DNA of 64,000 bases, from assembly GCA_000004985.1 (NCBI GenBank), contig GG738881.1; one strand, written 5' to 3'. Source of the DNA: Naegleria gruberi. Lineage: Eukaryota. This document shows positions 10,461-60,792 of the stretch, in pieces; positions within the stretch are counted from its first letter, which is position 1; each line of letters opens with the position of its first letter. A program made the translations under genes and the position numbers. The notes below the pieces were generated by a model. The model made no database searches and had not been told where the DNA came from. It worked only from the letters and a program-made list of their open reading frames with translations.

Positions 10461-12140
10461 ATGATTCAACATCTCGATCAAGACTTGTTCAGTTATTTGG
10501 TTTCCTTTCTTCCGAGAAGTGATCGTGCCATTCTGGTGGAGAATTTAAAACACCTGAATCGATACTTTTTCAAATTATTCGATCCATCTTCATCAAACAA
10601 GAACTCTGAATTAAATTCTTCAACTGTTTTGAGAGAAGAAGAATTTGATGATTGTTTGCATTCGGAGAGTTTGATGAAAATATTTGATAATTTGTACATT
10701 CCAACAATTCATGTGAAAGCGAATGTTGTTCAAGGTGGAGGAGAGTTAATGGAGGAAATGATTGGGATTTTGAAAAGATCGGAAGGAGTGGAATGTTTAT
10801 TAGGCTCCGATAAGGAATTTCTTGTGGAATTGGAATTTCCTGATGAGAAGATGATGCATGGGAATGGAAGATATTCAAATATTTGGGAATTATTGGAAAG
10901 ATCATGTAAATATTGGGTTGATGCAAGAGTTTCCTTGATTAAATTATTTACAGAGTGGAAATATTCGAAAAAGAGTTTAAATTCAGAAACTCTGAGCGAA
11001 TATTCGAATAGAAATGGTTTGATATTGAATGTTTGTCGATTAGTGAACAAGTTTCGAATTCATTTAATACTGGATAATGATACATATTCTAACCATGATA
11101 TATGGAAATATTCAGAAACGGTCGGCTTTCAAAAAGGATATTTTCGCGTTTCAGATAACTCAATTCCAGATATGGCCATCTCAATTCTTGCAAACATGAT
11201 GAGCCAGTTAATTTTACCCAAGATGGACACTTTTTGTAACTTGCCACTCGAGGGATTATATTCTGAAATGGAAATGAAATATATTCGAGCTACCATGAGA
11301 CTCAATCAATGGAATTTGCTCTACAAATTTCTAAATATTCAGCAGAATATCATTTGTAGACATATGAGCAAGGTGTTCCACTCAAACAGCTTGACCATTG
11401 TCAAACAAACTACTAAGAGTGAATTGTATCATAAGAATGCTGAGGATATCATTTATATTTTCTCACTCATTCCAATGGATTTATTGCAAACTGTTCATAG
11501 AATTCGACTCGTCAAGATCTTTCTAGAAAATTTCTACTCGAGTGAGTTGAATATTTCAGATGAATATAGAGAAAAGTACATTCAGAAATTCCCTGATGAT
11601 GCCATGCATTCAAATGGTATTCATATATTCGATTCCAGTTCATCCTCTCCACTAGTTTCCAATCAGAAAATTCAATTCACATTCGAAACTGTTCAATTCT
11701 TTAAAAAGTGTTTTGCTACCATTCGACAAAATTGTTTCTACATGCCCAAATATCCAAGCCTCTCCCTAAAAGCAATTTGTCACGAAATTAGTGATGATTT
11801 AATTTACACTGAAGATACCACAATTGGAAAAATTGACAGAATTTGTGTGGAAAATTGTATTAGAGGAGTGACAGCTCCAATATTCTTCATTCCATGTGTT
11901 ACTTATTGGAGTATGGTAGGATTGACTTGTTCATGTATTAATCCCTATCTCTATAAGGATGGAAAGAGTACAATCATGTCATGTTTGGATTATGACATTT
12001 TTAATTATGTATTTTGGTCAACTGGTTGTTACCCTTATTCAATCTGTACTTGTTGTCTTCCTTTGGAATATGCAGAAGTGGAACAGAGAAGAATTGACGA
12101 TAACAAGTTCAGACATCATACTACTTGCAATATTTTGTAA
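10461..12140 (+). CDS. hypothetical protein with N-terminal F-box-like motif and C-terminal Cys-rich region
   Basis: A 559-aa ORF. The N-terminus (DLFSYLVSFLPRSDRAILVENLKHL) resembles an F-box. The C-terminus has clustered Cys (CVENCIRG…CSCINPYLY…CTCCLP). Confidence 0.45.
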   Translation: MIQHLDQDLFSYLVSFLPRSDRAILVENLKHLNRYFFKLFDPSSSNKNSELNSSTVLREEEFDDCLHSESLMKIFDNLYIPTIHVKANVVQGGGELMEEMIGILKRSEGVECLLGSDKEFLVELEFPDEKMMHGNGRYSNIWELLERSCKYWVDARVSLIKLFTEWKYSKKSLNSETLSEYSNRNGLILNVCRLVNKFRIHLILDNDTYSNHDIWKYSETVGFQKGYFRVSDNSIPDMAISILANMMSQLILPKMDTFCNLPLEGLYSEMEMKYIRATMRLNQWNLLYKFLNIQQNIICRHMSKVFHSNSLTIVKQTTKSELYHKNAEDIIYIFSLIPMDLLQTVHRIRLVKIFLENFYSSELNISDEYREKYIQKFPDDAMHSNGIHIFDSSSSSPLVSNQKIQFTFETVQFFKKCFATIRQNCFYMPKYPSLSLKAICHEISDDLIYTEDTTIGKIDRICVENCIRGVTAPIFFIPCVTYWSMVGLTCSCINPYLYKDGKSTIMSCLDYDIFNYVFWSTGCYPYSICTCCLPLEYAEVEQRRIDDNKFRHHTTCNIL

Positions 12141-12196
12141 ACTCTTTACTCCTTATTAAATGAAGGGTTGTAAAAACTCTTTACTGGAATGGAGAA

Positions 12197-13741
12197 TTAC
12201 AGCTCATCAAGCAATTCAGCAAGTTTCTCCTTTGCAGCTTCATTTCCTTGAGCAGCCGACTTTTCAAACCACCAAATTGCCAATCCATCTGAAACTGCAT
12301 TCGAATCTTCCTTTGCAAAACCATAATAATAGAGACATCCCAAGTAGTACTGCGCATCAGAATTACCCTGACGTGCAGATTTCTCCAGCCATTCCTTTGC
12401 CTTATCATAATCTTGCTCTACACCCATTCCATTCAGATATAAACCTCCAAGATTCTTCTGACCTAGTGCATGACCTTGGTTGGCCGATTTTTCAAATAAT
12501 TCCCTTGCCTTCTTGTGGTTAATCTCACCGGCTAATCCATTGCTGTAGATACATCCGAGATCGTTGAGTGCATCTGGATTATTGGAGGCCTTTTCAAACC
12601 ATGATTTTGCCGTTAGAATATCAGATTTTACTCCCTTACCAGTTTGGTATAAACATCCGAGTTGATATTGAGCTATGGAGTTTCCCTGATTGGCAGATTG
12701 TTCTAGCCAATGAATGGCACGAGAAATTCTATTCGATTTGATATTTTTCAATCCCATTTGTAATTGATAGGTTTCGTCTTGTTCACACAAATTTCTAAAC
12801 TTGGATCGTGACAATTGATCCCAAAATTTCTGATCCATTTTCAATATTGAATGATGATCGTTGGAACTTTCCTTAAATCTATCTACTCGCACACTATCCA
12901 GAAACCAGTCAATTTCAGCATCCATGCCAATCACATCAAATTCATGAGCTTGTTTGACATTTGGCAAGTTCTTTAACACTTCTTGCAATTCAACAATCTT
13001 TTCAGTTACTATTTTCAAGCTCTGTACTGGCTCCTCTTCTTTCAACCAATCATTCCATTCTCTTTTTACACGTTTAAGCTTGGTCAATTCTGTCAACTTT
13101 TGCTCAGAATAAATATTTACAGATTTCTTCATTTCCAATTTACAATTTTCCAACTTTTTAAACATTTCATCAAATAACATGTCAATTCTCGATTCTATCA
13201 ATGGAACTTTCTGTCTGACAAGTTCACATGCTTGGTCAATTGATTCATCCTGACATTGATACTCATTCTCAACACGATTCATGAAATTTTGCCAATATTC
13301 AGTCCAATCCCTTGTTAAATTCATACTCTTTTCCATTTCTTCTCTATTTACATTATTGGAATTACTCAAACTTTCATTCAAACTAAAAATCTGAAACCAG
13401 CTCGAAGTTGAAGAATTTTTATTGGAAGAAACAGCAGAACCCTTCGAGCTAAGCAAACTCTTTGAACTATTTGTGGGCGAAACACTAGGAGGACGTCTAC
13501 CATTCGGTATTCCATTTGGTTGGGCCGGTAGAGGACATGTCGATGTTGAAATTTCATTACTAAGGCATTCATGATCAAGATGGCCTGGAGAGGCAGCTGA
13601 TGAATTCTTCCCCGAGGAGGAGGAGGATGAAGATGTTGTTGTCTTTATCAATGATGAATCGACAATCATTAAGGAAGAAGACAAGTGCTCCACAATCGAT
13701 TGTATCAACATTTTCTTTGATGATTTGCATAACTCACACAA
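12197..13741 (-). CDS. Sel1-like repeat (SLR) protein with N-terminal coiled-coil region
   Basis: The C-terminal half has about 5 tandem Sel1 repeats (…AQYQLGCLYQTGKGVKSD…, …LGGLYLNGMGVEQDYDKAKEWLEKSA…, …AQYYLGCLYYYGFAKEDS…). Confidence 0.75.
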   Translation of the reverse strand: MCELCKSSKKMLIQSIVEHLSSSLMIVDSSLIKTTTSSSSSSSGKNSSAASPGHLDHECLSNEISTSTCPLPAQPNGIPNGRRPPSVSPTNSSKSLLSSKGSAVSSNKNSSTSSWFQIFSLNESLSNSNNVNREEMEKSMNLTRDWTEYWQNFMNRVENEYQCQDESIDQACELVRQKVPLIESRIDMLFDEMFKKLENCKLEMKKSVNIYSEQKLTELTKLKRVKREWNDWLKEEEPVQSLKIVTEKIVELQEVLKNLPNVKQAHEFDVIGMDAEIDWFLDSVRVDRFKESSNDHHSILKMDQKFWDQLSRSKFRNLCEQDETYQLQMGLKNIKSNRISRAIHWLEQSANQGNSIAQYQLGCLYQTGKGVKSDILTAKSWFEKASNNPDALNDLGCIYSNGLAGEINHKKARELFEKSANQGHALGQKNLGGLYLNGMGVEQDYDKAKEWLEKSARQGNSDAQYYLGCLYYYGFAKEDSNAVSDGLAIWWFEKSAAQGNEAAKEKLAELLDEL

Positions 13742-24638: not shown

Positions 24639-24646
24639 AAAAAGGT
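24639..24646 (-). terminator. Pol III oligo-T terminator after tRNA-Cys
   Basis: Minus strand reads ACCTTTTTAAAA immediately after the discriminator. Confidence 0.5.
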
Positions 24647-24735
24647 AGGGTGGTACGTGGATCGAACACGTGACCATCGGATATCTGCTGCAAATTACAT
24701 TGCAATCCGGTGCTCTACCGCTGAGCTAACCACCC
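24647..24735 (-). tRNA. tRNA-Cys (GCA) with 17-nt intron
   Basis: Minus strand reads GGGTGGTTAGCTCAGCGGTAGAGCACCGGATTGCAA[TGTAATTTGCAGCAGAT]ATCCGATGGTCACGTGTTCGATCCACGTACCACCCT. It has a 7-bp acceptor stem, a T-loop TTCGATC, anticodon loop TTGCAAA with a canonical 37/38 intron that pairs with the anticodon, and the Cys-typical U73 discriminator. A T5 run follows at plus 24639..24643. Confidence 0.7.
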
Positions 24736-24876
24736 CTTCGATCATTACTTTTAAATATTCATTTCTATAGGAACAATATCCTTAATCAACTTTTGTTTAT
24801 AATTGTAATATTTTATTTAATTGAATAGTTTAGTTAGAAACAATTTAATATGTGAGATTTTCAAGTAGTGGTGTTG

Positions 24877-30413: not shown

Positions 30414-30597
30414 TTTTTTTGGTAAATCATAATTTATTCAATTTTTTGGTCAACCAAACATTTTACATCATGCTGATTCTAGGAATGATTTCACATCACT
30501 TGTTTGGAATTTAATTCATGTTGGTACATCATCAGAACAACCTGAACTAGCTTTGATGTTATTTAACATCATAGCTCAACGAAAGGGTAACTGATGA

Positions 30598-33468
30598 TTA
30601 TTGTCTTGTTTTGAAAGAATTGAAAAGTGAGAATACAACATCCAAGAGTGAGTTAACTATTTCCTTAAATTCAGGTCTACTCTTGAAATTGTATTCAACA
30701 CATTTACTTCCTAATGTGTGGATAAGCTTGGCTTGCTCTTCTGTAAGACATGGATAATGCTTACATAATTCTTCAACAGAAACGAAATTGATTTTGAGCA
30801 GCTGAGTATTGCTATCTTTTGTACGCACAATGCTTTGATTGGTCAAAAGCATATTCAGTGTAACTCCAAAACTGAAAGCATCCACTTTTGTGTTACCTAT
30901 TTCCGCACCTGTTACCATTTCAGCAATCTCTGGAGGCTTCCATAACTGGGTCATCATATTAATCAATTATCAACTTACCATATAGCCCGCAGTACCATAG
31001 ATTGAAGTTAGTGTTGTCAAATATTTTGCTGACTCCTTTGCTACGCTAAAATCTGTTAGTTTTACATCATTCACATATTCAATTCCATTAATAGTAATTG
31101 TTGAATAGAGAATATTGGAAGGTTTTAAATCGTGATGATAGATTTTTTCACTATGCAAAAATTCAAGTGTTTGAGCAATTTTCAAAGCAATGAACATAAT
31201 TTGAAATATTTGTCCATAACCTTGTCCTCCAAAATCATTAAAAGAATTTGTTTCATCTTTAAAACTTTTCATCAGTTCCAAAAATAATTGTACATTATTA
31301 TCATTTTCTTCATAATGAATTAACTTGACAATTCCTGGATGTTTGCTAACTTTTCTAATAATGTTTAGTTCTTCCAAATTATTTTCACATTTTATCGTTT
31401 TTCGTGCTACTGGAATATTATTCAATAATACTTTAACCACAATACCACATGCACCCTTTCCTAATTCTGTCATGCCACTTAGATCTATAATAGGATTTTG
31501 TAAAGTACAAGAAGTGATGGTATCAATGAATTTCTCAACATTATTAAGTGCAATAATCTTAGAAATGTTGTGTTAAAATTGAAAGGCATATCCTGAATAG
31601 AGGAAATATTAAGGAATGTGCTGAGTTGGGTTTTGTCGTTTGGATTCAAAAATTTGCTTAAAATTGACTTTTCTATTCCTACCACTCCTAATCGTTGTGC
31701 TGTTTTCAATACTGGAATGATTAAGTGTGTTGGAAGAGTGACATTAATTCTGTAGCAATATTTCACAATATATATCATTTCTTTTGGATAATTATCATCT
31801 GAAGATATCAAATTAAAATTAGTCATAGATGAATTTAGAATAGTTTTGTGACACTTTACAATCTCTCCATCAATTGTTAATACTAAATCGTGGTATAATT
31901 TAGTTTTGTACAAGTTTTGGAGAGTTTCTAACAAATCATTTCGATGAAAAATGTTCAACAGAGGTTCAACTGAATTCATATTAACGTTGATCTTTGGATA
32001 GGATCTTCGTTTAACCAGAGTTTTAAAATATGGAATAGCTCTATCATTATTCTCAAAGTATTGATCATATTCAGGTGTATTAGAATAAAATGCAACAAAA
32101 TCCAAACAGTATTCTTTGATTTGATTCAAATAGGAATTATTGTTATCAGAATCTCTATTCTGATAATTAGTAATTGTGTAGACAATATTTAACACACTTT
32201 TCATATCGATCATGGAAATAATTGATTCCAATAACTCATTTTGAAATTTAGACATTTCATTTGATACTTTATCCAATATAAATAATACAAATAACTTTTG
32301 TTTGATAGTTGTAAATGTGATTTCTGGATTGTAAATTAATTTATCTATCAGTAATTGTAATATTTCAGATTCACTATTGTTAAGTGATCGAATAAACTCC
32401 TCATTTAGCAATACATTTTCCAAGAATTTAGGTGCAATAATATTAATGATATCTTTAAAAACAATAATGTGACTATTTGGTAATTTGTCATATTCATATT
32501 TCTTGAAATGAATTATTTGTAAAATTTGTTCTGGTAAGATCAAGTCTTTGTCAACGATAATATTAGGTTGGCATAACAATAATTTAGCAATTTCAAAATG
32601 TTGTTTCTCTACAGTGATTCTTAATGGATTCTAATGGCATTAATTGACTAACTTATAGATATACCTACATCCTTATATTTTTAGAATCAATGATATTATT
32701 GACACTTACTTTCTAATATATTATTAAAAACAATATTTTAAACTAAAACTTACTTGCTAATATACTTTCAATATTAATATTCATATTCAATACTTACTTT
32801 CTAATTTGTTTTTAGAATTAGACGAAGCTATTACTTACATACTGATATTGTTAAATTTAATAAAATAATCATTACTTACAAGCTAAAAACAATTAATATT
32901 AAACTAATTTAATACTTACTTCCTAATAAACTTCAGACTACCAAAAATATTAATGTAATACATACGTACTAATTGTGTTAGCACAATTAAACATTTACTT
33001 ACAACCTATTTAAATTAATAATTGTATAATGATTGAATACGTACATACTATGTATTCAATAGTAAAAACACGATTGATTCGACACTTACTTTCTAGAAAA
33101 TTGTTAATATGCAAATAAATATATAATACTTGCTTCCTTATAATTTACTAGTAAATAATAGAATTGTAATTAATACTCACAGACTTAATTATTTAAATAA
33201 TTATTTAAATAATAATTTAAATACTTACTCCTAAATTGACATCAACATTCGGGACAGTCAACAATAATTTAACGATTTCCAAATGTCCCCTCTCGCAAGC
33301 TACATACAACAAGGTTTTTCCCAACGAAAATACCTTAAATTGGTAAGAATTGAAATAAAAATCATTAATGATCGGAGCCAAATCAAACTTTAACAATTCA
33401 GCAACATTTCCATCCTCCACCACTTGTAAAATTTTGTGTTTGTCAACAACTTCCACACCTCTTCTCAT
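30598..33468 (-). CDS. ankyrin-repeat – BTB/POZ – Ser/Thr-type protein kinase multidomain gene (frame break between BTB and kinase parts)
   Basis: Exon 1 (33229..33468) has ankyrin repeats (…LLYVACERGHLEIVKLLLTVPNVDVNLG). A ~598-nt repeat-filled intron (32631..33228) follows. Exon 2 (31485..32630) starts in an ankyrin repeat (NPLRITVEKQHFEIAKLLL…) and continues into a BTB-like domain (…LYHDLVLTIDGEIVKCHKTILNSSM…). The kinase ORF (30598..31473, with a small GTAAGT intron ~30924..30959) abuts in another frame: GKGACGIVVKV…VARK…HHDLKPSNIL…DFSVA…GTAGYM|LWKPPE. The 12-nt gap between the ORFs implies one gene with an indel or a non-canonical junction. Confidence 0.55.
32631..33228 (-). repeat. tandem array of 13 degenerate ~40-50-nt mini-intron-like units, each YAG + 3 nt + GTRAGT, filling one intron
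   Basis: On the plus strand the core ACTTAC(TTT)CTAAT recurs with ACTTAC at ~32704, 32748, 32792, 32833, 32874, 32914, 32964, 32997, 33039, 33084, 33128, 33175 and 33223. On the minus strand each copy reads ATTAG-AAA-GTAAGT or a close variant. The last copy is the real donor of the ankyrin exon, and the array ends at the acceptor CCATTAG|AAT of exon 2. Confidence 0.8.
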
Positions 33469-33871
33469 TTTTTTCTAGAACGTGATTGGATGAAACTCAT
33501 TAATTGTAAGTTGACACGATAGTTAACGTGTTTCATCAGGAGTATTTCCATTAATTGATATTTTGCATTTCATAGAGTGTAAATGGATGATGTGAATTAT
33601 CATTCTCCGAAATATTTTCTTGAATTGTCACTTGTCCAAAATTTACAAAATATTATATTTTAGCAAACAATTGTATGCACCGACAATTATTTCCAAAACA
33701 AATCCTTGCAAGTTGTTTGGAATATCTTCCTCATTCAATGCAACTCCGTCATCAATATCCAATAGTACCTTTCGAATTTGTTCTTTGGACCATAAACATG
33801 CGCATGTTAAGGCAGCAAAGGCTCTTATTGTTCTTTTGTATTTATTTTTACAATGAAATATCTGCAACAAG

Positions 33872-33880
33872 AAAAAAAGT
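33872..33880 (-). terminator. Pol III oligo-T terminator after tRNA-Met
   Basis: Minus strand reads ACTTTTTTT, from the plus-strand A7 run at 33872..33878. Confidence 0.6.
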
Positions 33881-33953
33881 TGGGGTCAGTGAGGATCGAA
33901 CTCACGACCTTAGGATTATGAGACCTACGCGCTACCGACTGCGCCATGACCCC
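33881..33953 (-). tRNA. tRNA-Met (CAT), elongator type
   Basis: Minus strand reads GGGGTCATGGCGCAGTCGGTAGCGCGTAGGTCTCATAATCCTAAGGTCGTGAGTTCGATCCTCACTGACCCCA. The anticodon loop is CTCATAA and pairing is G1-C72, not the initiator A1:U72. It closely matches eukaryotic elongator tRNA-Met. A T7 terminator lies directly downstream. Confidence 0.85.
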
Positions 33954-34298
33954 TACACAGTAATAATAAGAAATTACAAGTCCTTGATGAATAGGTTTCC
34001 TAAAGTGAAAGCGTAGGTTATTGAATAATTTTATGATTCTAAATTCCTCTGGATCAAAGATTGTAATGAGAAGTGGATGGAAAGGAATTTATCTCTTGCT
34101 GTGGTTAAGGAAACCCGCTCAAAACGACCATTCTCTCCGTGCATGTGTATGGCCATTTTTCTGAAATAACAAAATTAAATACTTAATCGAAATGAAATTC
34201 ATATGTTTTTAAGGATTTACATGTAGGAAATGAAATCCTTACAATGCATATGATTTTTTACACTGATAAATGCAATAATACTGTTGGTCAATTGATAG

Positions 34299-34619
34299 TT
34301 GATAAGGAAGTTTGCGTCGCGGACTTGGGAAGCCAAATTATTACATCCGCACGAAAGTGTTCAAAAACCAATAAAAAGCTTGTTGACCTTATTGGATGAG
34401 ATGGTTGCTGAGGAAAACAAAGTGGCTGCACGATTTACCATGACTGGCACACATGACGGTGTGTTTATGGGAATTCCAGCAAGTGGAAAGAATATTTGTG
34501 TGAAAGCCTCAAATTTTTACACGTTTAAGGATGGTCAGATTGTTGAAGAGTATGGCCAACCTGATTTATTGTCGTTGTTGCAACAAATTGGTGCCATCCC
34601 ACCAGCCAAATTGATTTAG
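34299..34619 (+). pseudogene. bacterial-type SnoaL-like polyketide/ester cyclase, N-terminally truncated ORF (possible HGT remnant)
   Basis: The ORF reads …LLDEMVAEENKVAARFTMTGTHDGVFMGIPASGKNICVKASNFYTFKDGQIVEEYGQPDLLSLLQQIGAIPPA and matches the C-terminal ~85 aa of ester cyclases. A TAG lies immediately upstream in frame and no upstream exon is evident. Codons are GC-richer than neighbouring genes (gcg tcg cgg, ccg cac, ggc aca cat gac ggt gtg). Confidence 0.5.
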
Positions 34620-35529
34620 AATGGCTCTTGTAACTAGTGATAATCTACAACCTGTATAAATAGTGGAAAATTCTCGACTTTCAAATGGGTTGAAGAAACG
34701 AACCAGCTCTACCACAAGCTTGTTTGCATAAAATATTTGAATAGAAAGGTGAGAAACCTCAAATGTGGCATTTGTTTTCTCTCAACTAGTGGAATTGTTG
34801 AAATGTCACTTATCTAAATAAAACTTGAAAAAAATTATCGACCTACTTTTTGACATGCCACTTTGCAACAATTACAAGTCATTTATTTCGGCGTTTGGCT
34901 CGGAAAATCAATTATTTTAATAATTAAAAACATGTGAATTTTTATAAAATTGAAACCTTGCTGAACCAAACACTGAAATAAGTGAGTAAATCATCACGTC
35001 CTATTTTGAATTATTTTTACTATTAAATATTTATTTTATAAAATCCCGAATTAAATCTTTCATCGAATGATTTTTCATACAATCCATCAATGGGTGTTTT
35101 ACTGCCTAATTTCAAAATATCACAATGTGAATACTTATACTTTTTGAATAAATAATTTTTTTATTAGGTCACCCATGTGACAATTTTACTTCGGCAAAAA
35201 TAATATTCTAAAAGATTCGGTGTAAAAATACATGTTCAAGCCAAATTTAATGTTTAAAAATAAAAAAGCAAAAAGAGAAAAAATTAACAAGATTTTTCTC
35301 CCTCTCAGAGGCTTTTTATAAAACTCGCATACAACAACACAAAAACAACAAGAAGAATATATAATATTATATTCAACCAACACACTTACACTTTGAACAA
35401 ATATTTGAGAGTGTTTGTTACGTACCCACAACAATAATAACAGCAAAAATAGTCTAGTGGTAATAGCTAAGAATTTAAACCGTTAGAAAACACAATTGTA
35501 TCATATACTCTGCAAAGAAGGACAACAAA

Positions 35530-36296
35530 ATGGATACCACTTGTTATCAGGTAAGGAATTATAATAGATAGATAGGAGACGAAGAGGATTGGATGATTGG
35601 AAATTTATTTTGGTTTTCTTCGTATTATGCAATTTGATGATGAAATAATAATAATTAATTTAATATGATGATAATTAACAAAACAAAAAACAATATTGAA
35701 AAACAATTTAAAAAAACAATAACATGGCAACTATGATCAGGAAGCACAAATTGCCAAGTCATTCATCTCAAACATTTACGATAGTTGGAAAGAAGGAAAA
35801 AAGGATGAATTACAACAATACTATAATGAAAACTCCAAGTTAAGCTGGAATGGACTGATATATAAAGGCATTGATATCATGAAGCTTTTCATGAACATCT
35901 ATCAAAGATTTACTATTACCTCGATAGATTGTCAACCAATTGGTATGTGGTTATAGAGAAATACTCATCAACTGACTCAACAATTAAGACAAGGAACATT
36001 TACTGATCAACGTGACTGGAATTGTAATTTATGATGGAGATAACAAGACAGCTAAGCTATATTCACATCAGATAGTTCTAGAAAGCAAGAATACGAATGG
36101 AACAATAGGAGTTTGTGTAGTTTTAGAAAACTTTAGATGGCTTGCTCCATGCAGTGTGAGAGCAGAACAAGAAATGGCTGACAAACCACAAAAACAACAT
36201 ACACCTAGGAGACAAAATACACCACAAAGAGGAGGTTTCCAAAAAAAGAACTTTTACACTCCTGGAAGAAATCCAAAGTTTCAAAATCAAGAATAA
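35530..36296 (+). CDS. NTF2-domain protein with basic Arg/Gln-rich C-terminal tail (3 exons; +1 frame break in exon 2 as assembled)
   Basis: Exon 1 (35530..35550) encodes MDTTCYQ and ends at a GTAAGG donor. Exon 2 (~35740..35942) encodes EAQIAKSFISNIYDSW…LSWNGLIYKGIDIM then, after an extra G at ~35880/35881, KLFMNIYQRFTITSIDCQPI. Exon 3 (~35989..36296) encodes …HLLINVTGIVIYDGDNKTAKLYSHQIVLES…FRW… and the tail. The protein is colinear with NTF2. Confidence 0.6.
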
Positions 36297-36468
36297 CATG
36301 TAAAAAATATAAACTAGAGAGCTAATTTATTTATTTAAATTGGAAACAAAGTATTTTATTTGTCTTGACTGAATTGAGAAAAATGTTTTATTTAGATAGA
36401 TTATTACCTGTGTGTCTTTACTGCATTTGCATTGAGAAAAAATTCTAATATTTGTTTATGAAGATTAA

Positions 36469-38085
36469 TTACAAAATAAATTGATTCTGGTTCACAGAGA
36501 GAATCATCAATACTCCATCTCCTTGATCTGAAGCTTGTTGTTGAGATTTTGCAATATTAATTTCACTGTGATAATAATCATCTAGAAATGTAGTTGCTTT
36601 GAATCCAAACTTGGTGTAGAGTCTCTGAGCTGGTAAATTGAAAGAGGAAACATGTAATTGAATCCACAAACACTTCTTCCAATATTGAACAAATCCGCTT
36701 TGCATAGTTGGATAGTTATTCCAATATTTACATTCCTCTTCCTCAGTGTCAGCTATTTGGTCAACATTGACAATAACATGTTCATTAGAATTTAAAGATG
36801 AAACATAGTATGTTGTTTCAGAGGTATCTAAATTGCAGGCATTCGTCGTTGGTGTGATTGAATATTGAGAGCTTTGTACTTCATCATTCATTGATCTCCA
36901 CATCCAAGAATAGGTCAGAACATGTTGAATGGTAAATCTTAACAATTCCTGCCCAATTCCATTCTTTCTCAAATCTGGATGAACTGCAAATGAGGTAATT
37001 TCACATCGTTGCTTCTCCTTATTAATATTATAGGTAATGTAACCTGCAACAATGAGAGATCCAAAAATGTTGGTGTTATTCCTAGTACAAGCAACCCAGG
37101 TGAAATTATCAACTGGTTTTTCATGATTATTACATAGAGATTGTTTAAATGCCTGATAGAGATACTTCTTATCTAGTGGTTTTGAAAAGCAAGAGCATTC
37201 AATATCGTACAATGCCTCAAATGTTTGATCTGAGAATGGATAAATGAGAATATCTGCTGTCTTTTCTGTTGGACGAATATCAATCGAGTTGGAAGGAGAA
37301 TTATTTACATGATTTACATCCAATTGATTGGTTTGATCTGGTAAAATATCATTAAAATTGTCAACATAGATACTTTCAGCAATTCTTCTTGGTCTTTTCA
37401 TAATTGGAAGAGCTGATTGTAAGAATACATGATCAGACGGATGTGAAAATGATGAATTATTCGTAGTACTGGAATCAGTTCCACTCGTTACAGACATTGT
37501 ACTGACATTTAGCATCGATCCAGTTGTCTTTCTAATATGATTCTTCATACAAGTTGAGCACAAATCGAAATCTCTACAATTCAAACAGTGAAATCTCGTT
37601 CCATGAATGCTACACTCACATCCATCACAAGTAACACCCTTGTGAACTATCTTCCCCTGAACTATCTGAACTTGTTCCAAATTAAATGAATCAATTGGTT
37701 TGGTAAATAATTCATAATCTTTACAGTATTGATCAGCAACAAGCACTCCATTCTTTGATATTTTCTTATCCAATAATCCAATTCTTTCCAAAAGCGGATA
37801 TTTAAATTTTCTATTCAATACCAAAGCAAAACAATGTCCCTTTTTCTGATGATGTTTACCTTGTTCCTTTTTACAATTTAAACAGAGAGTATAGGCTGTT
37901 TGTTGAGAGGAAAGCGAACAATTTAAACAAATGGACATGATTTGATTTTCATTGATTTTTGATTTACAATTTTGACATGTACATTGATCGCTCCGATGAT
38001 GAATATCATTATTGAGAGGATGACCGGTCGAGGAAGAAAAAATGTGATTTCGAGAAGTAGCAGCAGGTTGGCGCAAATTGTTCAT
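36469..38085 (-). CDS. ZZ-type zinc-finger + GNAT N-acetyltransferase domain protein
   Basis: The ZZ finger reads VTCDGCECSIHGTRFHCLNCRDFDLCSTC, with N-terminal Cys clusters. The C-terminal GNAT fold reads …IVAGYITYNI…EITSFAVHPDLRKNGIGQELLRF…AQRLYTKFGFK. Confidence 0.65.
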   Translation of the reverse strand: MNNLRQPAATSRNHIFSSSTGHPLNNDIHHRSDQCTCQNCKSKINENQIMSICLNCSLSSQQTAYTLCLNCKKEQGKHHQKKGHCFALVLNRKFKYPLLERIGLLDKKISKNGVLVADQYCKDYELFTKPIDSFNLEQVQIVQGKIVHKGVTCDGCECSIHGTRFHCLNCRDFDLCSTCMKNHIRKTTGSMLNVSTMSVTSGTDSSTTNNSSFSHPSDHVFLQSALPIMKRPRRIAESIYVDNFNDILPDQTNQLDVNHVNNSPSNSIDIRPTEKTADILIYPFSDQTFEALYDIECSCFSKPLDKKYLYQAFKQSLCNNHEKPVDNFTWVACTRNNTNIFGSLIVAGYITYNINKEKQRCEITSFAVHPDLRKNGIGQELLRFTIQHVLTYSWMWRSMNDEVQSSQYSITPTTNACNLDTSETTYYVSSLNSNEHVIVNVDQIADTEEEECKYWNNYPTMQSGFVQYWKKCLWIQLHVSSFNLPAQRLYTKFGFKATTFLDDYYHSEINIAKSQQQASDQGDGVLMILSVNQNQFIL

Positions 38086-38157: not shown

Positions 38158-38238
38158 CGTTGAGGATGGGATTCGAACCCACGCGGATTACTCCACCAAC
38201 TTAGCAGGCTGGCGCCTTAACCACTCGGCCACCTCAAC
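38158..38238 (-). tRNA. tRNA-Ser (GCT), class II with long variable arm
   Basis: Minus strand reads GTTGAGGTGGCCGAGTGGTTAAGGCGCCAGCCTGCTAAGTTGGTGGAGTAATCCGCGTGGGTTCGAATCCCATCCTCAACG. The D-arm is identical to animal tRNA-Ser, the anticodon loop is CTGCTAA, and the discriminator is G73. A TTTTGTC terminator follows. Confidence 0.9.
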
Positions 38239-38377: not shown

Positions 38378-41300
38378 TTAAATATCTTCTCCTGCTGGAC
38401 TAATCATTATGGAAATCTTATCCAAATCATTGCCAATAGATATGGAAGACCTATTTGGACGCATCACAATTGGATTCACATGATGTTTCTCCTTTACAAG
38501 ATATGTTTTACATTCACCTTTTCCTTTTACCGAAACTTTTCTTTCTTCAAATTCGAATAAATCGTATGTTCTTTCGTAGGTACTTCGAGAAAGTTGGATT
38601 CGTCCTGGTACCCCAGTAGATTCCATTCTTGAGGAAGTATTGATGGTATCTCCCCATAAGTCTGTTTTTAATTATAAATATTCAATATTTTTGTAACAAA
38701 TTGTAATGCATAGTTAAAATATCGAAAAACATACCATAGGCAAATTTCTTTCTTCCAATCACACCAGCAATAACTCCTCCAGTATTCAATCCAATTCTAA
38801 CATTCAATTGTGAATCTAAATTTTCAGAATTATATGAACGGATTACTGACAAGGTGTCAATTGCAAATCTCAAAGTTCTTTCTGGATGATCGGATTGAGC
38901 ATTCACACCATGCAATCCTCCAACACAAAAATACGAATCCCCAATTGTTTTTATCTTTTCCAAATTGTATTTATCTGTCAAATCATCAAATCCGTTTACA
39001 ATTCTATTAAGCATTAGAACTAGCTCAGAAGGATTCATGTTAGAACTCAAATTTGTAAATCCAACCCTAAATAGATTATTTTCTAATAAATTCAAGGAAC
39101 TTACATATCACTGAAATAACAAGTAATGTCAGAAAATCTTTCGGCAATGAAAGTTTCTCCATTTTTAAGTTTCGTCGCAACTTCTTCTGGAAGAATGTTC
39201 CTTAATAAATTTTCAGAATTTTTCTTCTCCTCCGCAAGTAAACTATTCTGTTTCTTTTCCATTGTAATGTCCTTAATAAATAGAGAAACAAATGAGCTAT
39301 TGTTAATTTCAGTTCCAAAAATGCTCACTTTGGCGGGAAATTTACTCGAATTCTTTCGAATACAATCAATTTCCAATACTTCTCCCAATTCATTTTCTTC
39401 CCCTTTCGTATGGTATTTGAATTCGCCAGTTGCTTTCTTCATCAATTCGTGAAAAGACGGATCAAAGAGTGTTGTGAAGGATAAACCCAAAACGTCAACT
39501 GCTGATTTTCCAAACATTTTCTGAGCTGCAATATTGATAAATGTCACTTCTCCTCTTTCATTACATGTGACAGCTCCTTCTACCATTGAATTGAGAAGAT
39601 TCTTAATGGCATCGTCATATTCAGTCTTTCGTTTCACATGTGAACTATTAGAAAGTGTATTATTCACAATGAAATTCTTCAAAATATCATTCGAATCTAA
39701 ATAATCTATTGGAATGTAATTCAAAAACGTTCTCAATGTGGTAATATCATAATCAGTTGTGTGAAAGCTCATATAAATGTAATAATTAAAAGCAATCAAG
39801 AAGAAAAATCCAAACACAAAGAATACAATACTAATCACTTTCGATGATGAAGTAGAAGAAAGTGTTGTCAACAATTCCAATAATCTCTCAATCATTTCAT
39901 CTGTCATGTTAAATATACTGAGATAGTACAAAAAAGTGTCAGGTGCCTTTGCATAGAATGGATTCAAAATATCTTCATTGAATTTTGAACACAAATGAAG
40001 AACAGTTGCAACTAATTCTTGTAAATCATAACACGTTCCATTTAGACATGTAAGTGGAGCAGTAATTACCTCGTCAACTCCTGGATATTTGTTGAATATT
40101 GAGCTTGTCAAATTTCCACCGAATAAAAGTTCTGCAAATTGAGATTGTGCTTCAGAAATGTAGATGCGATTATCAGAGTGGTATGTATCTAGATTGGATT
40201 GATTGGCTAATGCAGGATCGTTAACAGAATGCCCTGACTTGATACCATAAAAGGCAAACAATTCACCCAATCGGACATTTAATCTTGTGCAAGCTCTTAT
40301 CACTGATGTGGCTGTGTCCACATTGACCATGGCCTGAGATGACATGGCCACATTCAGATTATTTTCCACATACATAAATGAAATACAAAGTGAAAATACT
40401 ATTAAGGAAAGAAAACCAATACTAAGGGACATGAATTTTGGACTAACTACCCTTCTCAAATGTTTCACTTCCTGAGTGGACCGTTTTTGAAGATCATGAT
40501 AGACGGATCCGACGAATTCTTTGGGAATCTTACTGAATAGGTTGATTATTCGAGAAGATTTAGACATTCCAATTCTGGAAATTATTAAAAATGTTCCATA
40601 AATGATAATTAATACAAATGTGGAAGTAAATAAGTAAATTCTCAAAATTCTATCAAGTAGCAAATTCTGAGCCCTCTTTCTAATCTGAAATTTTGAACAA
40701 AAAAGACCATTCGCCTCACTTGCAGCTCTTCTATTAAGGTAAGTATACATAAATTCATAAGATTTGATCGTTTCATTGTAATTCTTCCAATTGTAAATAA
40801 TTTTCGTGTTGGATATGAATTCTCTCGTCAACTCACTCATGGAAATGTTCTTCTTGTAGCTCGTCGTGTAAACTCTATCACTGGTGCTTACACTTGCTGT
40901 AGGAACAACAATCGGATTAATCACAGCTTTGTAATCTTCAACCATTTGTGTTGTAAACTGTGGTGATATTGAATTAGCAGCTAGATTTTGTAAATATTGC
41001 AAAATCCTTTTCAATCTACGTTGGTGATTATTCAGAAAATATTGAATAGTTTCATATTCAGAGGAATTCACAGCTGGTTGACTAATATTTAGATTATTGT
41101 AAAGCTCATTGTAAATTTGTCCCATTCTCACTTCACGCATCAAACTTGAAGGACTCGTTCCAGGTAAGCAAGAATCCAAAGATAATGGAATTTCCGTAAC
41201 TAAACTTCCCAAAACAATGCAAAGAATGAATGCAATTAAAAGTAAAACTATCTGAAACAAGGCTAAACCAATTAATGTGTAATTTCGTACTTTGGATTGA

Positions 41301-42970
41301 TAGGGAGTGTTAAGAGCGTTTCTAATAAAGAGATGTTTCTTTTCTGTGGATCCAGCCACTTCAATTCCTTCAAATTTTTCCTCCTCCAACTCAATCATGG
41401 TATTTCGTCTATTTTCTAATAAAGTATTTGGAGGTGTAATCATACTATTGGCAATACTAAAATGCTTTTCAGTTTTTGGTTTCGTCTTTTTCTCAAACTT
41501 TTTAACAATTGGCTGAGCTTTCGACTCTTCCTCTTCCAACTGAAAAGCTTGTTCGAATAAATCAGCAGCTGTTTCCTTGTCAAACTTGAAATTCTCTAAA
41601 TAACTTGCATAAAACCTCAACACTGTCTTATCGTGTTTAAAATTTGTCATTAAATGTTTAAATCTCTCATCACAATACAAGGTCAATGCAGTTGTACGAG
41701 AGATTAGTTGATTGATCTTAATTTCATTAGGTAGGTCAGAAATTATTTCCTTCCAAAACATGCGATGGATTGACCACAACTCATCCTGTTGTTTTTCCAG
41801 ATCGTGGAGCATGGTTTTGATTTCTACTTGATTAATTCCGTGAGTTTTAGTTGAGCTGTAAACTTCAATTTCTTTCATTCTTTCCATAATTAGAATTCTT
41901 GTCCAGCCATTGTTACAGAAGCGTTTTGCCTTTTTTAGAATGTAGGTAGCATAGGAAGAACTGTTTTCATCGTTCCAATANNNNNNNNNNNNNNNNNNNN
42001 NNNNNNNNNNNNNNNNNNNNNNNNNNNNNNNNNNNNNNNNNNNNNNNNNNNNNNNNNNNNNNNNNNNNNNNNNNNNNNNNNNNNNNNNNNNNNNNCCAAT
42101 TCGTTGTCTCCACACTCGTATCCTACTATGGACCTTTCCTTTCAAAGTTCTAAACTCGGTCACAAGTATGGCCATGAAGATAAAGTACATGGCCATGAGA
42201 ACACTAGTAATGGCAATTTTCGCCGTATATCCAATTGCATCCAATGAAAGTGTGATAGGATAATTGAGTACACGGAACACCCAACTAGCATACTGTCCAT
42301 ACGGATTTTCCTTAATATAATTGGTATTCGAAAGTGGATAATTACTTCTCTCTGAAGAAAGTGTTGGAAATATCAAATTAACCCAATACATGTACATGTA
42401 GAAACCAAAAATCAACACCCTCTCAAACATTCGAATCTCAGTTTCACTCGTTTTCACAGTCAAGTAAAAGTTTGCCAATTTTTCATTGAATAATTGAAAG
42501 ACTGAAGTTGGTGCACCACTCGAAGTTGTTAAAACATTATTGAAAGAGGACATGTTATCGGATGCTGTTGCTGGATTATTTCCTCCTCCAACTCCTGCTA
42601 TGGATAAATCGTACTGTGTATTTGTTGCTTGTGTTGGGCTGACAATTTGAATATTAGTTGAATTGTTATTGCTAATAGGAGTGGTTATTATGGTTGTGGT
42701 TGTGGAGTTTTTGTTGTTGTTGTTGTTATTCAGCTGATAAATTCCGCTACCACTCGAGGAATTAAGGAAATTAATATTGTTATTGTGATTAACATTGTTA
42801 TTGTTGTCGTTTGGTAATGTTGGAGAGGAAGTTAATGTAATTAGTGGAATGCTCATATCATCGCTTGCTTGTTGTTGAAGCATCGTCGTTGCTAAAGTAG
42901 AGACTTGTGGTGAAGATGAAGATGAAGAAGTGTTATCAACAATATTGCTCATCATCCTATGTTTTTTCAC
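38378..42970 (-). CDS. polytopic membrane class III nucleotidyl (adenylyl/guanylyl) cyclase with PAS domain; contains the assembly gap
   Basis: The long 5' exon (39105..42970) has an Asn/Ser-rich N-terminus, ≥8 predicted TM helices separated by two large loops, a PAS-like domain (…VTCNERGEVTFINIAAQKMFGKSAVDVLGLSF…) and the cyclase lead-in LLRNILPEEVATKLKNGETFIAERFSDITCYFSD. A 38-nt intron (~39067..39104, GTAAGT…TTTAG) follows. The middle exon (38735..39066) reads …VGFTNLSS…KIKTIGDSYFCVGGL…RIGLNTGGVIAGVIGRKKFAY. After an intron at ~38662..38734, the last exon (38378..38661) reads DLWGDTINTSSRMESTGVPGRIQLS…VKGKGECKTYLV. Confidence 0.8.
41980..42095. other. assembly gap (116 N)
   Basis: A run of n characters, giving about 39 X residues in the cyclase ORF. 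Confidence 1.
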
Positions 42971-54585: not shown

Positions 54586-56514
54586 ATGAAACAATTGAAT
54601 GCTAGAGGATTATTTGAAAATTCTAAAGTGTCGGAAAGTAATCATCAGTGTGTTTTAGATTTATCCCTCTCTTCAAAATTACTTTCCACTAAAATTCAAG
54701 ACATTCCACAGAAAGATAAATATGAAATAATTATAAAACCACTATTCGAATATTGTTTCGGAACGAGTGATGATTCTGTTTGGGAGAAACTAAATGATGA
54801 TGAAGAGGAATACGAAAGTGATGATAATGACCACGATGAAGAGGAAGATGAAAGAATTGATGAAAATAATGACCAAAATGACACTAGTCAAATAATATAT
54901 TTAAAGATTGATTGGAACAGAGATCGAACTTTTATTCATGGGCAAATATTCAATTTGGTTGTTGGTAAATTTCTCATTTTGGCCAATAAGCTTGGATTGT
55001 GGAAGAATAGATCATTTGTTTTGACTACGACCGAATATAGAGATATTAAAACACTCAAGTATGTGGACGATAATTTCAGGAATGATAGGGAAATTGTAAT
55101 GGCAGCTGTCAACGAAAATGGACGTACCCTTAAATATGCATCGAGTGAATTGAGAAATGATTTTGAAATTGTAAAAACAGCCGCTCGGAATAATCGTCGA
55201 GCACTGTGGTATGCATCGAAACAATTGAGTAGTAATAAGGAAATTGTAATGACAGCTGTTAAAAGTAATGGACTATCTCTTGAATATATGCCTACACAAA
55301 TTAGAAATGACAGAAAAATTGTTAAAATTGCTATACAAGAGAATGGTAATGCACTTGGATATGCTTCAAAAGAATTGAAGAGTGATAAGGAAATTGCCCT
55401 ACTTGCTATAGAATCAAGCCCAAAAGCATATGAATGTGCATCTAATCAATTGACGAATGACCAAGATCTAATTCTTAAAGTGTTGTCCAAATCGTGCGAC
55501 TATATTTTCGGTATTGACCAATCAATTAAGCTATTTAAAAACGATAGAAAATTTATACTTGCTATTGCAAAGTTGGATGGCCTTAAAGCCCTTCGTAATG
55601 CTTCACTGGAATTGAGAGATAATAGAGAGATAGTAATTGAAGCAGTTCAACAAAATCCAAATGCTTTGGTCTATGCATCTAGTGAATTGAGGAATGACAA
55701 GGAGATTGTGAAAATGGCAGTAATGGAAAATGGAAGCTGTTTGACTTTTGCATCAAATGAATTGAAAGATGATAAGGAAATTGCGGAATTGGCATTCAAA
55801 TCTTCTGAAATTGCTGTTCGATATTTTTCTGAAAGATTGAGAAATGATATTGAATTCCTGAGCGGATTTGGAAAGAGAGGTTATTTATTAAAGATTTTAC
55901 CAGATCATTTCATGAATGACAGAGAAATAGTATTGGAAGCAATCAAACTGGACCCACAAATTATTTTGACTCTTCCCAATGAATTGAAAAGAGACAGAGA
56001 ATTTATATTGCAAGCTGTAACAAGATGTGGTATGGCACTTCGTGGAGTGAGTTCAGAATTTCAAAAAGATAGAGAATTAGTTTTGGCTGCAGTAACACAA
56101 AATGGAAATTCAATCAATTTTGCCTCACAAGAAGTTTGGAATGATAAGGAAATTGTTCTGAAAGCTGCCGAAACATGCAATCAAGAACTATTACTTAAAT
56201 TACCAAGTTTCGACAAACAAATTTACCTGCAACTCATCAAAAAACGTGGAGGTGAATGCCTGAAATATTTTCCAAGAAAATTTCAAATAGATAGAGAAAT
56301 TCTAATGGAAGCCTTAAAAACCCATCCTAAAACTGCATTCCTCAATGCTTCTGGCACGTTAAAGGTAATGGATCGAGTATTTGCTATGCGAGTTGTGAAA
56401 AGAGATGGCATGCTTTTAGGTGAAATGTGTTCAAAACACAAAAGTGATAGAGAAATAATTTCCTGTGCAGTCAAACAAAATATCAAAGCACTGAAATATG
56501 CATCCATTGATTGA
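54586..56514 (+). CDS. DUF4116-repeat protein
   Basis: An acidic N-terminus is followed by ≥12 tandem ~36-aa repeats of the form …NDREIVMAAVNENGRTLKYASSELRNDFEIVKTAARNN…. Confidence 0.65.
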   Translation: MKQLNARGLFENSKVSESNHQCVLDLSLSSKLLSTKIQDIPQKDKYEIIIKPLFEYCFGTSDDSVWEKLNDDEEEYESDDNDHDEEEDERIDENNDQNDTSQIIYLKIDWNRDRTFIHGQIFNLVVGKFLILANKLGLWKNRSFVLTTTEYRDIKTLKYVDDNFRNDREIVMAAVNENGRTLKYASSELRNDFEIVKTAARNNRRALWYASKQLSSNKEIVMTAVKSNGLSLEYMPTQIRNDRKIVKIAIQENGNALGYASKELKSDKEIALLAIESSPKAYECASNQLTNDQDLILKVLSKSCDYIFGIDQSIKLFKNDRKFILAIAKLDGLKALRNASLELRDNREIVIEAVQQNPNALVYASSELRNDKEIVKMAVMENGSCLTFASNELKDDKEIAELAFKSSEIAVRYFSERLRNDIEFLSGFGKRGYLLKILPDHFMNDREIVLEAIKLDPQIILTLPNELKRDREFILQAVTRCGMALRGVSSEFQKDRELVLAAVTQNGNSINFASQEVWNDKEIVLKAAETCNQELLLKLPSFDKQIYLQLIKKRGGECLKYFPRKFQIDREILMEALKTHPKTAFLNASGTLKVMDRVFAMRVVKRDGMLLGEMCSKHKSDREIISCAVKQNIKALKYASID

Positions 56515-58737: not shown

Positions 58738-58806
58738 ACTTTCAAAACTTTCTACCCCAATATAACTCCTCTAATTTATTCTTTTATTCTTTTTAAATTT
58801 ATTAAA

Positions 58807-60672: not shown

Positions 60673-60792
60673 TTTTTTTTTTAATTGTTTTTTAAACTTT
60701 GAAAACTATTTGTAAATAAATTTATGAATTTTACAAAATAATTTCACATAAAAATTACATCAATAATGGGTACACAGATCCTTTTACAGTTC

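What the first reader, a model, noticed from the sequence alone, without database searches (positions are those of the whole stretch)
34020..34619. Truncated bacterial-type SnoaL/ester-cyclase ORF with GC-richer codons, a possible horizontal-transfer remnant
ORF 34299..34619 aligns well with the C-terminal two-thirds of bacterial ester cyclases (…IEDMVAEGDKVAARFTMTGTHDGVFMGIPASGK…DGQIVEEY…LLSLLQQIGAIPP). An in-frame TAG lies directly upstream and no N-terminal helix 1-2 region is found in any frame. Its codons (gcg, tcg, cgg, ccg, ggc, gtg) contrast with the A/T-ending codons of every neighbouring gene. A GC-richer island extends upstream to ~34060. The fragment sits between a tRNA-Met gene and a long gene-poor spacer.
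Basis: partly seen in the sequence, partly recalled or inferred. Interest (0 to 1): 0.55.

Follow-up and report, generated by a model that had tools for sequence, protein, structure and literature searches.

The report
Decayed bacterial-derived gene in Naegleria
This is the dead back half of a small bacterial-type enzyme gene in the amoeba Naegleria gruberi, whose front half was lost in a 223-base deletion while a very close relative still carries the whole gene; it is an ordinary example of gene gain from bacteria followed by decay.

Summary
The window is Naegleria gruberi NEG-M nuclear DNA, shown by exact protein matches.

- **What the ORF is.** Only residues 32-106 of ORF 34299..34619 are SnoaL-like. 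They match Pfam PF07366 at E=1e-20, covering profile positions 60-126 of 126.
- **Intact copy elsewhere.** A metagenome contig (L001) comes from a Naegleria about 1-3% diverged from NEG-M. It has the same locus with the same tRNA-Met neighbour, and carries an intact, intronless 140-aa gene (P0001).
- **The lesion.** The window lacks 223 bp of L001: 27 bp of leader, the ATG, 65 codons and the first base of codon 66. The junction lies at 34392|34393.
- **Origin.** All other relatives are bacterial, at 58-68% identity. No hit named as eukaryotic appears, and none in viral contigs.
- **Composition.** The signal is real but modest: remnant GC is 41.7%, GC3 0.39 against 0.29 for neighbours.
There is no GC island upstream. 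The 'gene-poor spacer' holds an NTF2-domain gene.

Verdict: a 5'-truncated pseudogene of a gene acquired from bacteria.

The parts
34393..34619 (+). Coding remnant of the SnoaL-like gene: the last two bases of codon 66, codons 67-140 and the TAG stop. In frame, 34392-34616 reads LDEMVAEENKV...AIPPAKLI.
   Evidence: 100% amino-acid identity to residues 66-140 of P0001. There are 2 synonymous differences in 227 nt against L001. Pfam SnoaL profile positions 60-126 of 126.
34392..34393 (+). Deletion junction (CCTTAT|TGGATGAG). 223 bp present in L001 (positions 1232-1454) are missing here: 27 bp of leader, the ATG, codons 2-65 and the first base of codon 66. There is 1 bp of microhomology (T).
   Evidence: Pairwise alignment and exact flank mapping. 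The nearest run of N in the assembly is at 41981-42095.
34299..34391 (+). Spurious 5' extension of the ORF (31 codons, from TTG). It is the former non-coding 5' leader or promoter region read in frame by accident, and it contains the 'gcg tcg cgg' codons.
   Evidence: Aligns to L001 about 1105-1231, upstream of the ATG at L001 1259, with a 32-bp indel. No similarity to any SnoaL protein.
34620..34764 (+). 3' flank shared with the intact locus, probably the 3' UTR. Homology to L001 ends at 34764.
   Evidence: 141/145 identical to L001 1682-1826. The L001 tail has no match in the window.
33954..34298 (.). Indel-rich intergenic region between tRNA-Met and the former gene. It includes about 82 bp (within 34067-34170) that are absent from L001.
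   Evidence: Alignment A1 shows 47-, 35- and 32-bp indels and 3-6.5% substitutions. GC is 31.5%.
33881..33953 (-). tRNA-Met (CAT), divergently oriented neighbour. It serves as the synteny anchor shared with L001.
   Evidence: ARAGORN. Rfam RF00005 at 70.1 bits. 73/73 identical to L001 781-853.

Best explanation
The feature is a unitary pseudogene in the nuclear genome of Naegleria gruberi NEG-M.

**Origin.** An ancestor of the N. gruberi lineage acquired a small (140-aa), intronless bacterial gene for a SnoaL-like / NTF2-fold 'ester cyclase' family protein. It came to lie about 400 bp from a tRNA-Met gene.

**State in a relative.** The gene is still intact in a very close relative sampled in a metagenome.

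**The lesion in NEG-M.** A single 223-bp deletion with 1-bp microhomology, consistent with end-joining or slippage, removed the proximal leader, the start codon and residues 1-65.

**Consequence.** In the structure model, residues 1-65 are helices a1-a3, strand b1 and the start of b2, which form one wall of the a+b barrel pocket. What is left (b2-b5 and a short C-terminal helix) has no start codon in its native context and cannot form the barrel. The 106-codon ORF arises only because the former leader happens to be open in frame.

**What is shown and what is inferred.**
- Shown: organism identity, homology, the deletion and its exact junction, synteny in two assemblies, bacterial-only relatives among named hits, and absence of the fragment from the protein collection.
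- Inferred: the direction and timing of transfer, that the deletion is biological rather than an assembly error, that the remnant is inactive and not expressed, and the biochemical role of the intact protein. That role is probably a small-molecule transformation linked to carbonyl or redox metabolism, judged from the bacterial gene neighbourhoods.
For: **Organism.** Six ORFs of the window are exact matches to N. gruberi proteins (EFC42100, 42104, 42181, 42182, 42186, 42192) on one 379,849-bp scaffold.

**Homology.**
- The remnant matches Pfam SnoaL at E=9.6e-21, but only profile positions 60-126 of 126.
- The intact P0001 covers positions 2-126 at 109.7 bits.
- P0001 keeps all 42 columns that are invariant in 26 family members.

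**Deletion.**
- L001 aligns to the window on both sides of the gene, including an identical tRNA-Met.
- Exactly 223 bp are missing at 34392|34393.

**Same organism group as L001.**
- Contigs L159 and L160 come from the same sample (ERZ929261).
- They are colinear with window 55815-61395 and 9256-13566.
- Coding divergence is 0.3-2.7% and intergenic divergence is 1.8-3.6%.

**Structure.**
- The AF2 model of P0001 has pLDDT 91.6, with H3-17, H20-26, E27-33 and H44-58 inside the deleted part.
- The fold matches SnoaL-family structures: TM 0.84 to 5x7l and 0.81 to 1sjw.

**Bacterial origin.**
- The next-best hit after P0001 itself drops from 307 to 199 bits (66-68% identity).
- Every hit that carries an organism name is bacterial.
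- 80 bacterial genome loci were kept (of 227 confirmed) across Acidobacteriota, Bacteroidota, Proteobacteria, Myxococcota, Firmicutes, Actinobacteria and Verrucomicrobia, at 56-67% identity.
- 74 metagenome loci reach at most 68% over comparable lengths.
- The hits whose context was examined sit in contigs with typical bacterial gene arrangements.

**Composition.** The remnant is the GC-richest coding stretch of the window, at 41.7%.

**Not annotated.** No protein containing the fragment other than P0001 is in the collection.

**Background.** Bacterial gene transfer into N. gruberi is reported as frequent (PMC4053784).
Against: - No reads were available, so a collapsed or mis-assembled 223 bp in the NEG-M draft cannot be excluded.
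- For the same reason, a second intact haplotype in NEG-M cannot be excluded.
- The phylogeny is only an unbootstrapped neighbour-joining tree, in which the Naegleria sequence sits on a long branch. The donor is therefore unresolved, and 'nested within bacteria' is not statistically demonstrated.
- Absence from other eukaryotes rests on protein-database listings (top 120 hits, with names for only about a quarter), not on genome scans.
- The remnant is nearly identical to the intact copy (2 synonymous changes in 227 nt). This matches the genome-wide 1-3% divergence and says nothing about selection either way.
- Expression was not tested.
Confidence: 0.85

Rival explanations
1. Assembly artefact or heterozygosity: the NEG-M genome really carries the intact gene on all or some haplotypes. 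On this view the 223-bp gap in the window comes from a draft mis-assembly, or from the assembler choosing a deleted haplotype.
For: The scaffold is a draft with at least one N gap (41981-42095). The intact allele exists in an organism only about 1-3% diverged. No reads could be examined.
Against: The junction is clean and has no N or low-complexity sequence. The same intergenic region carries three other indels (47, 35 and 32 bp) between the two strains, so real indel variation is common here. No N. gruberi protein that includes the N-terminal half is in the protein collection.
Confidence: 0.08
2. Vertical inheritance: the SnoaL-like gene is an old eukaryotic or heterolobosean gene that merely resembles bacterial ones and is being lost in NEG-M.
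For: Codon usage of the gene is close to the host's (codon-adaptation index 0.62-0.67 against 0.71). Its GC content could equally be native. Genome scans of other Heterolobosea were not possible.
Against: The gene has no introns. It is 64-68% identical to proteins from many bacterial phyla. No hit named as eukaryotic appears among the best 120 hits of two searches of a 5.8-billion-protein collection that holds sequences from NCBI nr, UniRef and EukProt. The score gap from self to the next hit is filled only by bacterial or metagenomic sequences.
Confidence: 0.04
3. The remnant is still functional, either as a short protein starting at the in-frame ATG 34401 (72 aa) or as an exon captured by another transcript.
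For: An in-frame ATG exists at 34401. The remnant has no nonsynonymous change relative to the intact copy. The 3' flank is well conserved at 97%.
Against: Identity at this level is the genome-wide baseline between the two strains, so it is not a sign of constraint. The fragment lacks all three helices and b1 of a single-domain barrel. No such protein is in the collection. The native promoter-proximal leader was removed together with the start codon.
Confidence: 0.03

Closest known systems
Bacterial 'ester cyclase' / SnoaL-like domain proteins (Pfam PF07366), about 138-140 aa, for example from Paraflavisolibacter caeni, Sorangium sp. So ce1128 and Serratia plymuthica
   Same: The length is the same and the alignment runs end to end without internal gaps. 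Identity is 57-68%, and all 42 family-invariant columns are kept in the intact Naegleria copy P0001. The window remnant is identical to P0001 over residues 66-140.
   Different: The gene is encoded in a eukaryotic nuclear genome beside a eukaryotic tRNA gene, in AT-rich DNA. The window copy lacks residues 1-65 and a start codon.
SnoaL / AknH / DnrD anthracycline methyl-ester cyclases (PDB 1sjw, 2f98; NCBIfam NF033407)
   Same: The fold is the same NTF2-like a+b barrel: Foldseek TM 0.81-0.83, probability 1.00.
   Different: Identity is only about 19-21%. P0001 scores 38 bits against the NF033407 cut-off of 200. The bacterial homologues sit next to short-chain dehydrogenases, aldo/keto reductases, zinc alcohol dehydrogenases and LysR/PadR regulators, not polyketide synthase clusters. 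A polyketide-cyclase function should therefore not be assumed.
TsrD of Streptomyces laurentii (PDB 5x7l), the closest solved structure
   Same: It is the best match by both sequence and fold: phmmer E=1.9e-13, Foldseek TM 0.84, rmsd 1.9 A, 30% identity.
   Different: At 30% identity only, the substrate cannot be transferred from TsrD.
Bacterium-to-Naegleria lateral gene transfers reported from phylogenomic screens (Clarke et al. 2013, PMC4053784)
   Same: It is the same kind of event: a single bacterial metabolic gene embedded among host genes.
   Different: This copy is decayed and has no matching entry in the protein collection, so a protein-based screen would probably not find it. An intact allele is known only from a metagenome contig.

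Membership tests
SnoaL-like domain (Pfam PF07366) | Profile match above Pfam's gathering score | tested here: met
   Window ORF scores 74.4 bits against 28.4. Intact P0001 scores 109.7 bits.
SnoaL-like domain (Pfam PF07366) | Complete domain forming the NTF2-like a+b barrel (three helices plus a curved sheet) | tested here: not met
   The window copy covers only profile positions 60-126 of 126, and no N-terminal part is found in any frame. The intact relative P0001 does meet this feature: pLDDT 91.6, TM 0.84 to 5x7l.
SnoaL/DnrD polyketide methyl-ester cyclase subfamily (NCBIfam NF033407) | Score above the curated cut-off | tested here: not met
   P0001 scores 38.1 bits against 200. The window ORF scores 21.5 bits.
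SnoaL/DnrD polyketide methyl-ester cyclase subfamily (NCBIfam NF033407) | Location in an aromatic polyketide biosynthesis cluster (checked in the bacterial homologues) | tested here: not met
   The recurrent neighbours in the 80 bacterial genome loci examined are short-chain dehydrogenase (11 loci), aldo/keto reductase (10), zinc alcohol dehydrogenase (5), molybdopterin oxidoreductase (5), LysR and PadR.
SnoaL/DnrD polyketide methyl-ester cyclase subfamily (NCBIfam NF033407) | SnoaL catalytic residues (Asp121 and the Gln/His set, recalled from the literature) | not tested
   No residue-level alignment to 1sjw was produced.
Gene horizontally acquired by a eukaryote from bacteria | Physically linked to genuine host genes, not a contaminant contig | tested here: met
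   The window is a single N. gruberi scaffold with exact host proteins on both sides. A eukaryotic tRNA-Met lies 345 bp from the ORF start.
Gene horizontally acquired by a eukaryote from bacteria | Same junctions seen in an independent assembly | tested here: met
   L001, a metagenome assembly, has the same tRNA-Met, leader and 3' flank.
Gene horizontally acquired by a eukaryote from bacteria | Closest homologues are bacterial and the gene is absent from related eukaryotes | tested here: inconclusive
   All hits that carry an organism name are bacterial, and none is eukaryotic, in the top 120 of two searches.
Gene horizontally acquired by a eukaryote from bacteria | Supported phylogenetic nesting inside a bacterial clade | tested here: inconclusive
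   The neighbour-joining tree places P0001 on a long branch beside P0002 and Bacteroidota sequences. No bootstrap was run and only 140 columns were available.
Unitary pseudogene | A disabling lesion relative to a known intact orthologue | tested here: met
   The 223-bp deletion removes the ATG and codons 1-65.
Unitary pseudogene | Not expressed as a functional product | not testable with these tools
   No transcript or proteome data were available. The fragment is absent from the protein collection.

The most novel reading that the evidence does not exclude
The locus may capture turnover of a bacterial gene acquired within the Naegleria gruberi species complex. On this reading the gene is specific to that lineage and was inserted beside a tRNA gene. 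It is now polymorphic between strains only about 1-3% apart, intact in one and knocked out by a 223-bp deletion in the reference strain. That would make it a natural system for measuring how fast transferred genes are gained, kept or discarded in a free-living amoeboflagellate. It would also give a functional gene (P0001) that is missing from the reference proteome.
Probability: 0.45. Interest if true: 0.35.

Novelty: new member of a known kind. Interest (0 to 1): 0.27.

Why it matters
Gene transfer from bacteria into free-living amoebae is well documented, but it is catalogued almost entirely from annotated, intact proteins. Decayed acquisitions are invisible to such screens, so loss rates are poorly known.

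Here the exact inactivating lesion can be read, because an intact allele survives in a near-identical strain. This gives a dated example (within about 1-3% sequence divergence) of loss of an acquired gene. It also adds an unannotated pseudogene to the N. gruberi reference, and shows that the species complex has a SnoaL-like enzyme absent from the reference proteome. Beyond that it is a routine case and has no mechanistic novelty.

Tried and rejected
- **N-terminal half elsewhere in the window.** I searched for it in any frame or as an upstream exon (tblastn, word size 2, E up to 100). Nothing was found, so an intron or split-gene model is rejected.
- **Selection on the remnant.** At first the remnant's 0.9% divergence, against 3-6.5% in the upstream intergenic region, looked like evidence of purifying selection or gene conversion. 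I rejected this after two other contigs from the same metagenome gave a genome-wide baseline of 0.3-2.7% in coding sequence.
- **More Naegleria alleles.** A scan of JGI metagenome contigs returned no Naegleria-like locus, with nothing above 68% identity over more than 100 residues.
- **Viral route.** There are no relatives in IMG/VR by protein pattern or by exact DNA.
- **A larger transferred fragment.** tblastn of 117 neighbour proteins of the bacterial homologues, plus the neighbours on L002, against 33400-36600 gave only chance-level hits (best E=0.022).
- **Repeat or mobile-element origin.** The extra 34060-34170 segment and the spacer have no other copies in the window.
- **Donor identification.** The neighbour-joining tree hints at Bacteroidota. 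The closest relative over the C-terminal part, P0002, lies on a 36%-GC bacterial contig with only a weak RteC match (20 bits, below the cut-off). This is too weak to claim a donor.
- **Literature.** Nothing was found on this gene, and accession PRJEB11402 was not found in any paper.
- **Rfam.** The only matches in the window are the three tRNAs.

Full report
**What is in the sequence**

ORF 34299..34619 (+) is 106 codons long, starts at TTG, and is preceded by in-frame TGA and TAG codons. Only its last 75 residues resemble anything. Pfam SnoaL (PF07366) matches residues 31-97 at 74.4 bits, E=9.6e-21, but covers only profile positions 60-126 of 126.

A tRNA-Met (CAT) lies at 33881-33953 on the minus strand.

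**Organism**

Six long ORFs of the window are exact matches to Naegleria gruberi proteins, all on one 379,849-bp scaffold. They are EFC42100, 42104, 42181, 42182, 42186 and 42192. The window is therefore nuclear DNA of N. gruberi NEG-M, with 33.4% GC.

**The key comparison**

The best database hit, P0001, is a 140-aa protein that is 100% identical to the last 75 residues of the ORF and carries a full N-terminal half. It is encoded without introns on a 1,887-bp metagenome contig, L001 (sample ERZ929261).

L001 is the same locus as the window:
- It has an identical tRNA-Met (73/73 bases).
- It shares the sequence on both sides of that tRNA.
- It shares the leader upstream of the gene.
- It shares the coding remnant and 145 bp of 3' flank.

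Two further contigs from the same sample, L159 and L160, are colinear with window 55815-61395 and 9256-13566. Their substitution divergence from the window is 0.3-2.7% in coding sequence and 1.8-3.6% in intergenic sequence. The metagenome organism is thus a strain or sibling species very close to NEG-M.

**The lesion**

Relative to L001 the window lacks exactly 223 bp, L001 positions 1232-1454. This is 27 bp of leader, the ATG at 1259, codons 2-65 and the first base of codon 66. The junction is CCTTAT|TGGATGAG at 34392|34393, with 1 bp of microhomology.

The first 31 codons of the ORF align to L001's non-coding leader. They are open in frame only by accident.

tblastn with P0001 finds no trace of residues 1-65 anywhere in the 64 kb. 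An upstream exon is therefore excluded.

**Consequence for the protein**

An AlphaFold2 model of P0001 has pLDDT 91.6 and pTM 0.83. Its elements are H3-17, H20-26, E27-33, H44-58, E63-72, E75-85, E99-111, E114-122 and H124-130. It matches SnoaL-family structures: TM 0.84 to TsrD (5x7l), 0.81 to SnoaL (1sjw) and 0.83 to AknH (2f98) (by sequence).

The deletion removes all three helices, b1 and the start of b2, which together form half of a single-domain barrel. The remnant cannot fold as such and has lost its start codon. None of the three candidate products tested is in the protein collection: the 106-aa ORF, the 72-aa form starting at ATG 34401, and a 59-aa form starting at the next in-frame ATG. 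P0001's cluster has a single member, from a metagenome. The fragment therefore appears to be unannotated.

**Origin**

After P0001 itself (307 bits) the next hits score no more than 199 bits, at 62-68% identity. Every hit that carries an organism name is bacterial.

A scan of GTDB species genomes confirmed 227 loci and kept the best 80, at 56-67% identity. They span Acidobacteriota, Bacteroidota, Alpha-, Beta- and Gammaproteobacteria, Myxococcota, Firmicutes, Actinobacteria and Verrucomicrobia. The JGI metagenome scan gave 74 loci, and none covering more than 100 residues exceeds 68% identity.

Two hits whose contigs were examined show typical bacterial arrangements:
- P0002 overlaps an alpha/beta-hydrolase gene by one base.
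- P0006 lies beside a hybrid two-component regulator.

No hit named as eukaryotic appeared, and IMG/VR holds no relative. An unbootstrapped neighbour-joining tree puts the Naegleria sequence on a long branch near P0002 and Bacteroidota sequences. This is suggestive but not conclusive about the donor.

Contamination and chimeric assembly are excluded by the host flanks in two independent assemblies. Bacterial transfers into N. gruberi are already reported as numerous (PMC4053784).

**Composition**

The remnant has 41.7% GC, in the top 1.7% of 228-bp windows. Its GC3 is 0.39, against 0.29 +/- 0.05 for 30 neighbouring ORFs, whose maximum is 0.37. Against 75-codon windows from those ORFs it is only in the top 8%. 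A codon-adaptation index built from the neighbours does not separate it: 0.67 against 0.71 +/- 0.06.

The signal is real but mild. Because low-GC bacterial homologues exist (L002, 36% GC), composition cannot date the transfer. The claimed GC-richer island from 34060 to 34300 does not exist, since that stretch has 31.5% GC.

**Timing of the deletion**

The remnant differs from L001 at 2 of 227 sites, both synonymous. I first read this as a sign of constraint. The genome-wide baseline between the two strains is the same, about 1% in coding sequence. It therefore shows only that the deletion arose within the short time separating the two strains, and gives no information on selection.

The tRNA-to-gene intergenic region is unusually variable. 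It has 3-6.5% substitutions and indels of 47, 35 and 32 bp.

**Likely function of the intact gene (inference)**

P0001 falls far below the NCBIfam cut-off for true SnoaL/DnrD methyl-ester cyclases, at 38 bits against 200. In bacteria the homologues recur next to short-chain dehydrogenases (11 loci), aldo/keto reductases (10), zinc alcohol dehydrogenases (5), molybdopterin oxidoreductases (5) and LysR/PadR regulators. They are not found in polyketide clusters.

A role in transforming some small carbonyl or ester compound is the best guess. The substrate is unknown.

**Surroundings**

The 'long gene-poor spacer' is only partly empty. A plus-strand NTF2-domain gene with two GT..AG introns occupies about 35530-36296 (Pfam NTF2 at 30.6 bits against a cut-off of 21). 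No remnants of typical bacterial neighbour genes are present around the fragment.

**Verdict**

This is a 5'-truncated unitary pseudogene of a bacterial-derived SnoaL-like gene in N. gruberi NEG-M. An intact allele survives in a near-identical environmental strain.

It is a new member of a known kind. Its interest is low to moderate, mainly as a clean, dated example of loss of an acquired gene.

Noticed in passing
window 35530-36296 (+): The supposed gene-poor spacer holds a three-exon NTF2-domain gene. My model has exons 35530-35550, 35741-35942 and 35989-36296, with GT..AG introns of 190 and 46 nt. Pfam NTF2 scores 30.6 bits against a cut-off of 21. Exon 1 is a guess, and the exact model is not in the protein collection.
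   Followed up: partly
L001 1-672 versus window 30470-33788: To the left of the tRNA-Met region, homology between the metagenome strain and NEG-M stops at window 33789. Only a 41-bp match to 30470-30509 is found. The window carries about 3.3 kb here, with protein-kinase ORFs and an ankyrin-repeat ORF at 33217-33468, which the other strain replaces with about 520 bp of unrelated sequence. This is a structural variant between the strains.
   Followed up: partly
window 33954-34392: The tRNA-Met-to-gene intergenic region is a hotspot of indels between the two strains (47, 35, 32 and 223 bp). Its substitution divergence (3-6.5%) is higher than that of four other intergenic regions (1.8-3.6%).
   Followed up: partly
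window 34765 onward versus L001 1827-1887: Homology to L001 also ends abruptly 145 bp after the stop codon. The last 61 bp of L001 have no match in the window, which points to another indel or rearrangement downstream.
   Followed up: partly
window 41981-42095: A run of 115 N (an assembly gap) lies inside the 1,289-codon ORF 39101-42970 on the minus strand.
   Followed up: no
window 24644-24736 (-) and 38158-38238 (-): There are two more tRNA genes. The tRNA-Ile (AAT) is 93 nt long, so it probably contains an intron. The other is tRNA-Ser (GCT). That makes three tRNA genes within 14 kb, all on the minus strand.
   Followed up: no
window 30598-32579 (-): Three adjacent same-strand ORFs (30598-30966, 30970-31473, 31485-32579) look like pieces of one gene interrupted by short introns or stops. 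The middle one is a protein-kinase domain (Pfam Pkinase E=1.4e-25).
   Followed up: no
L002 (JGI 3300013869, 1,780 bp): P0002 is the closest non-Naegleria relative over the C-terminal part, at 76% identity. It lies on a 36%-GC bacterial contig, overlaps an alpha/beta-hydrolase gene by one base, and is followed by an ORF with a weak RteC match (20 bits, below the cut-off). This hints at a low-GC Bacteroidota source.
   Followed up: partly
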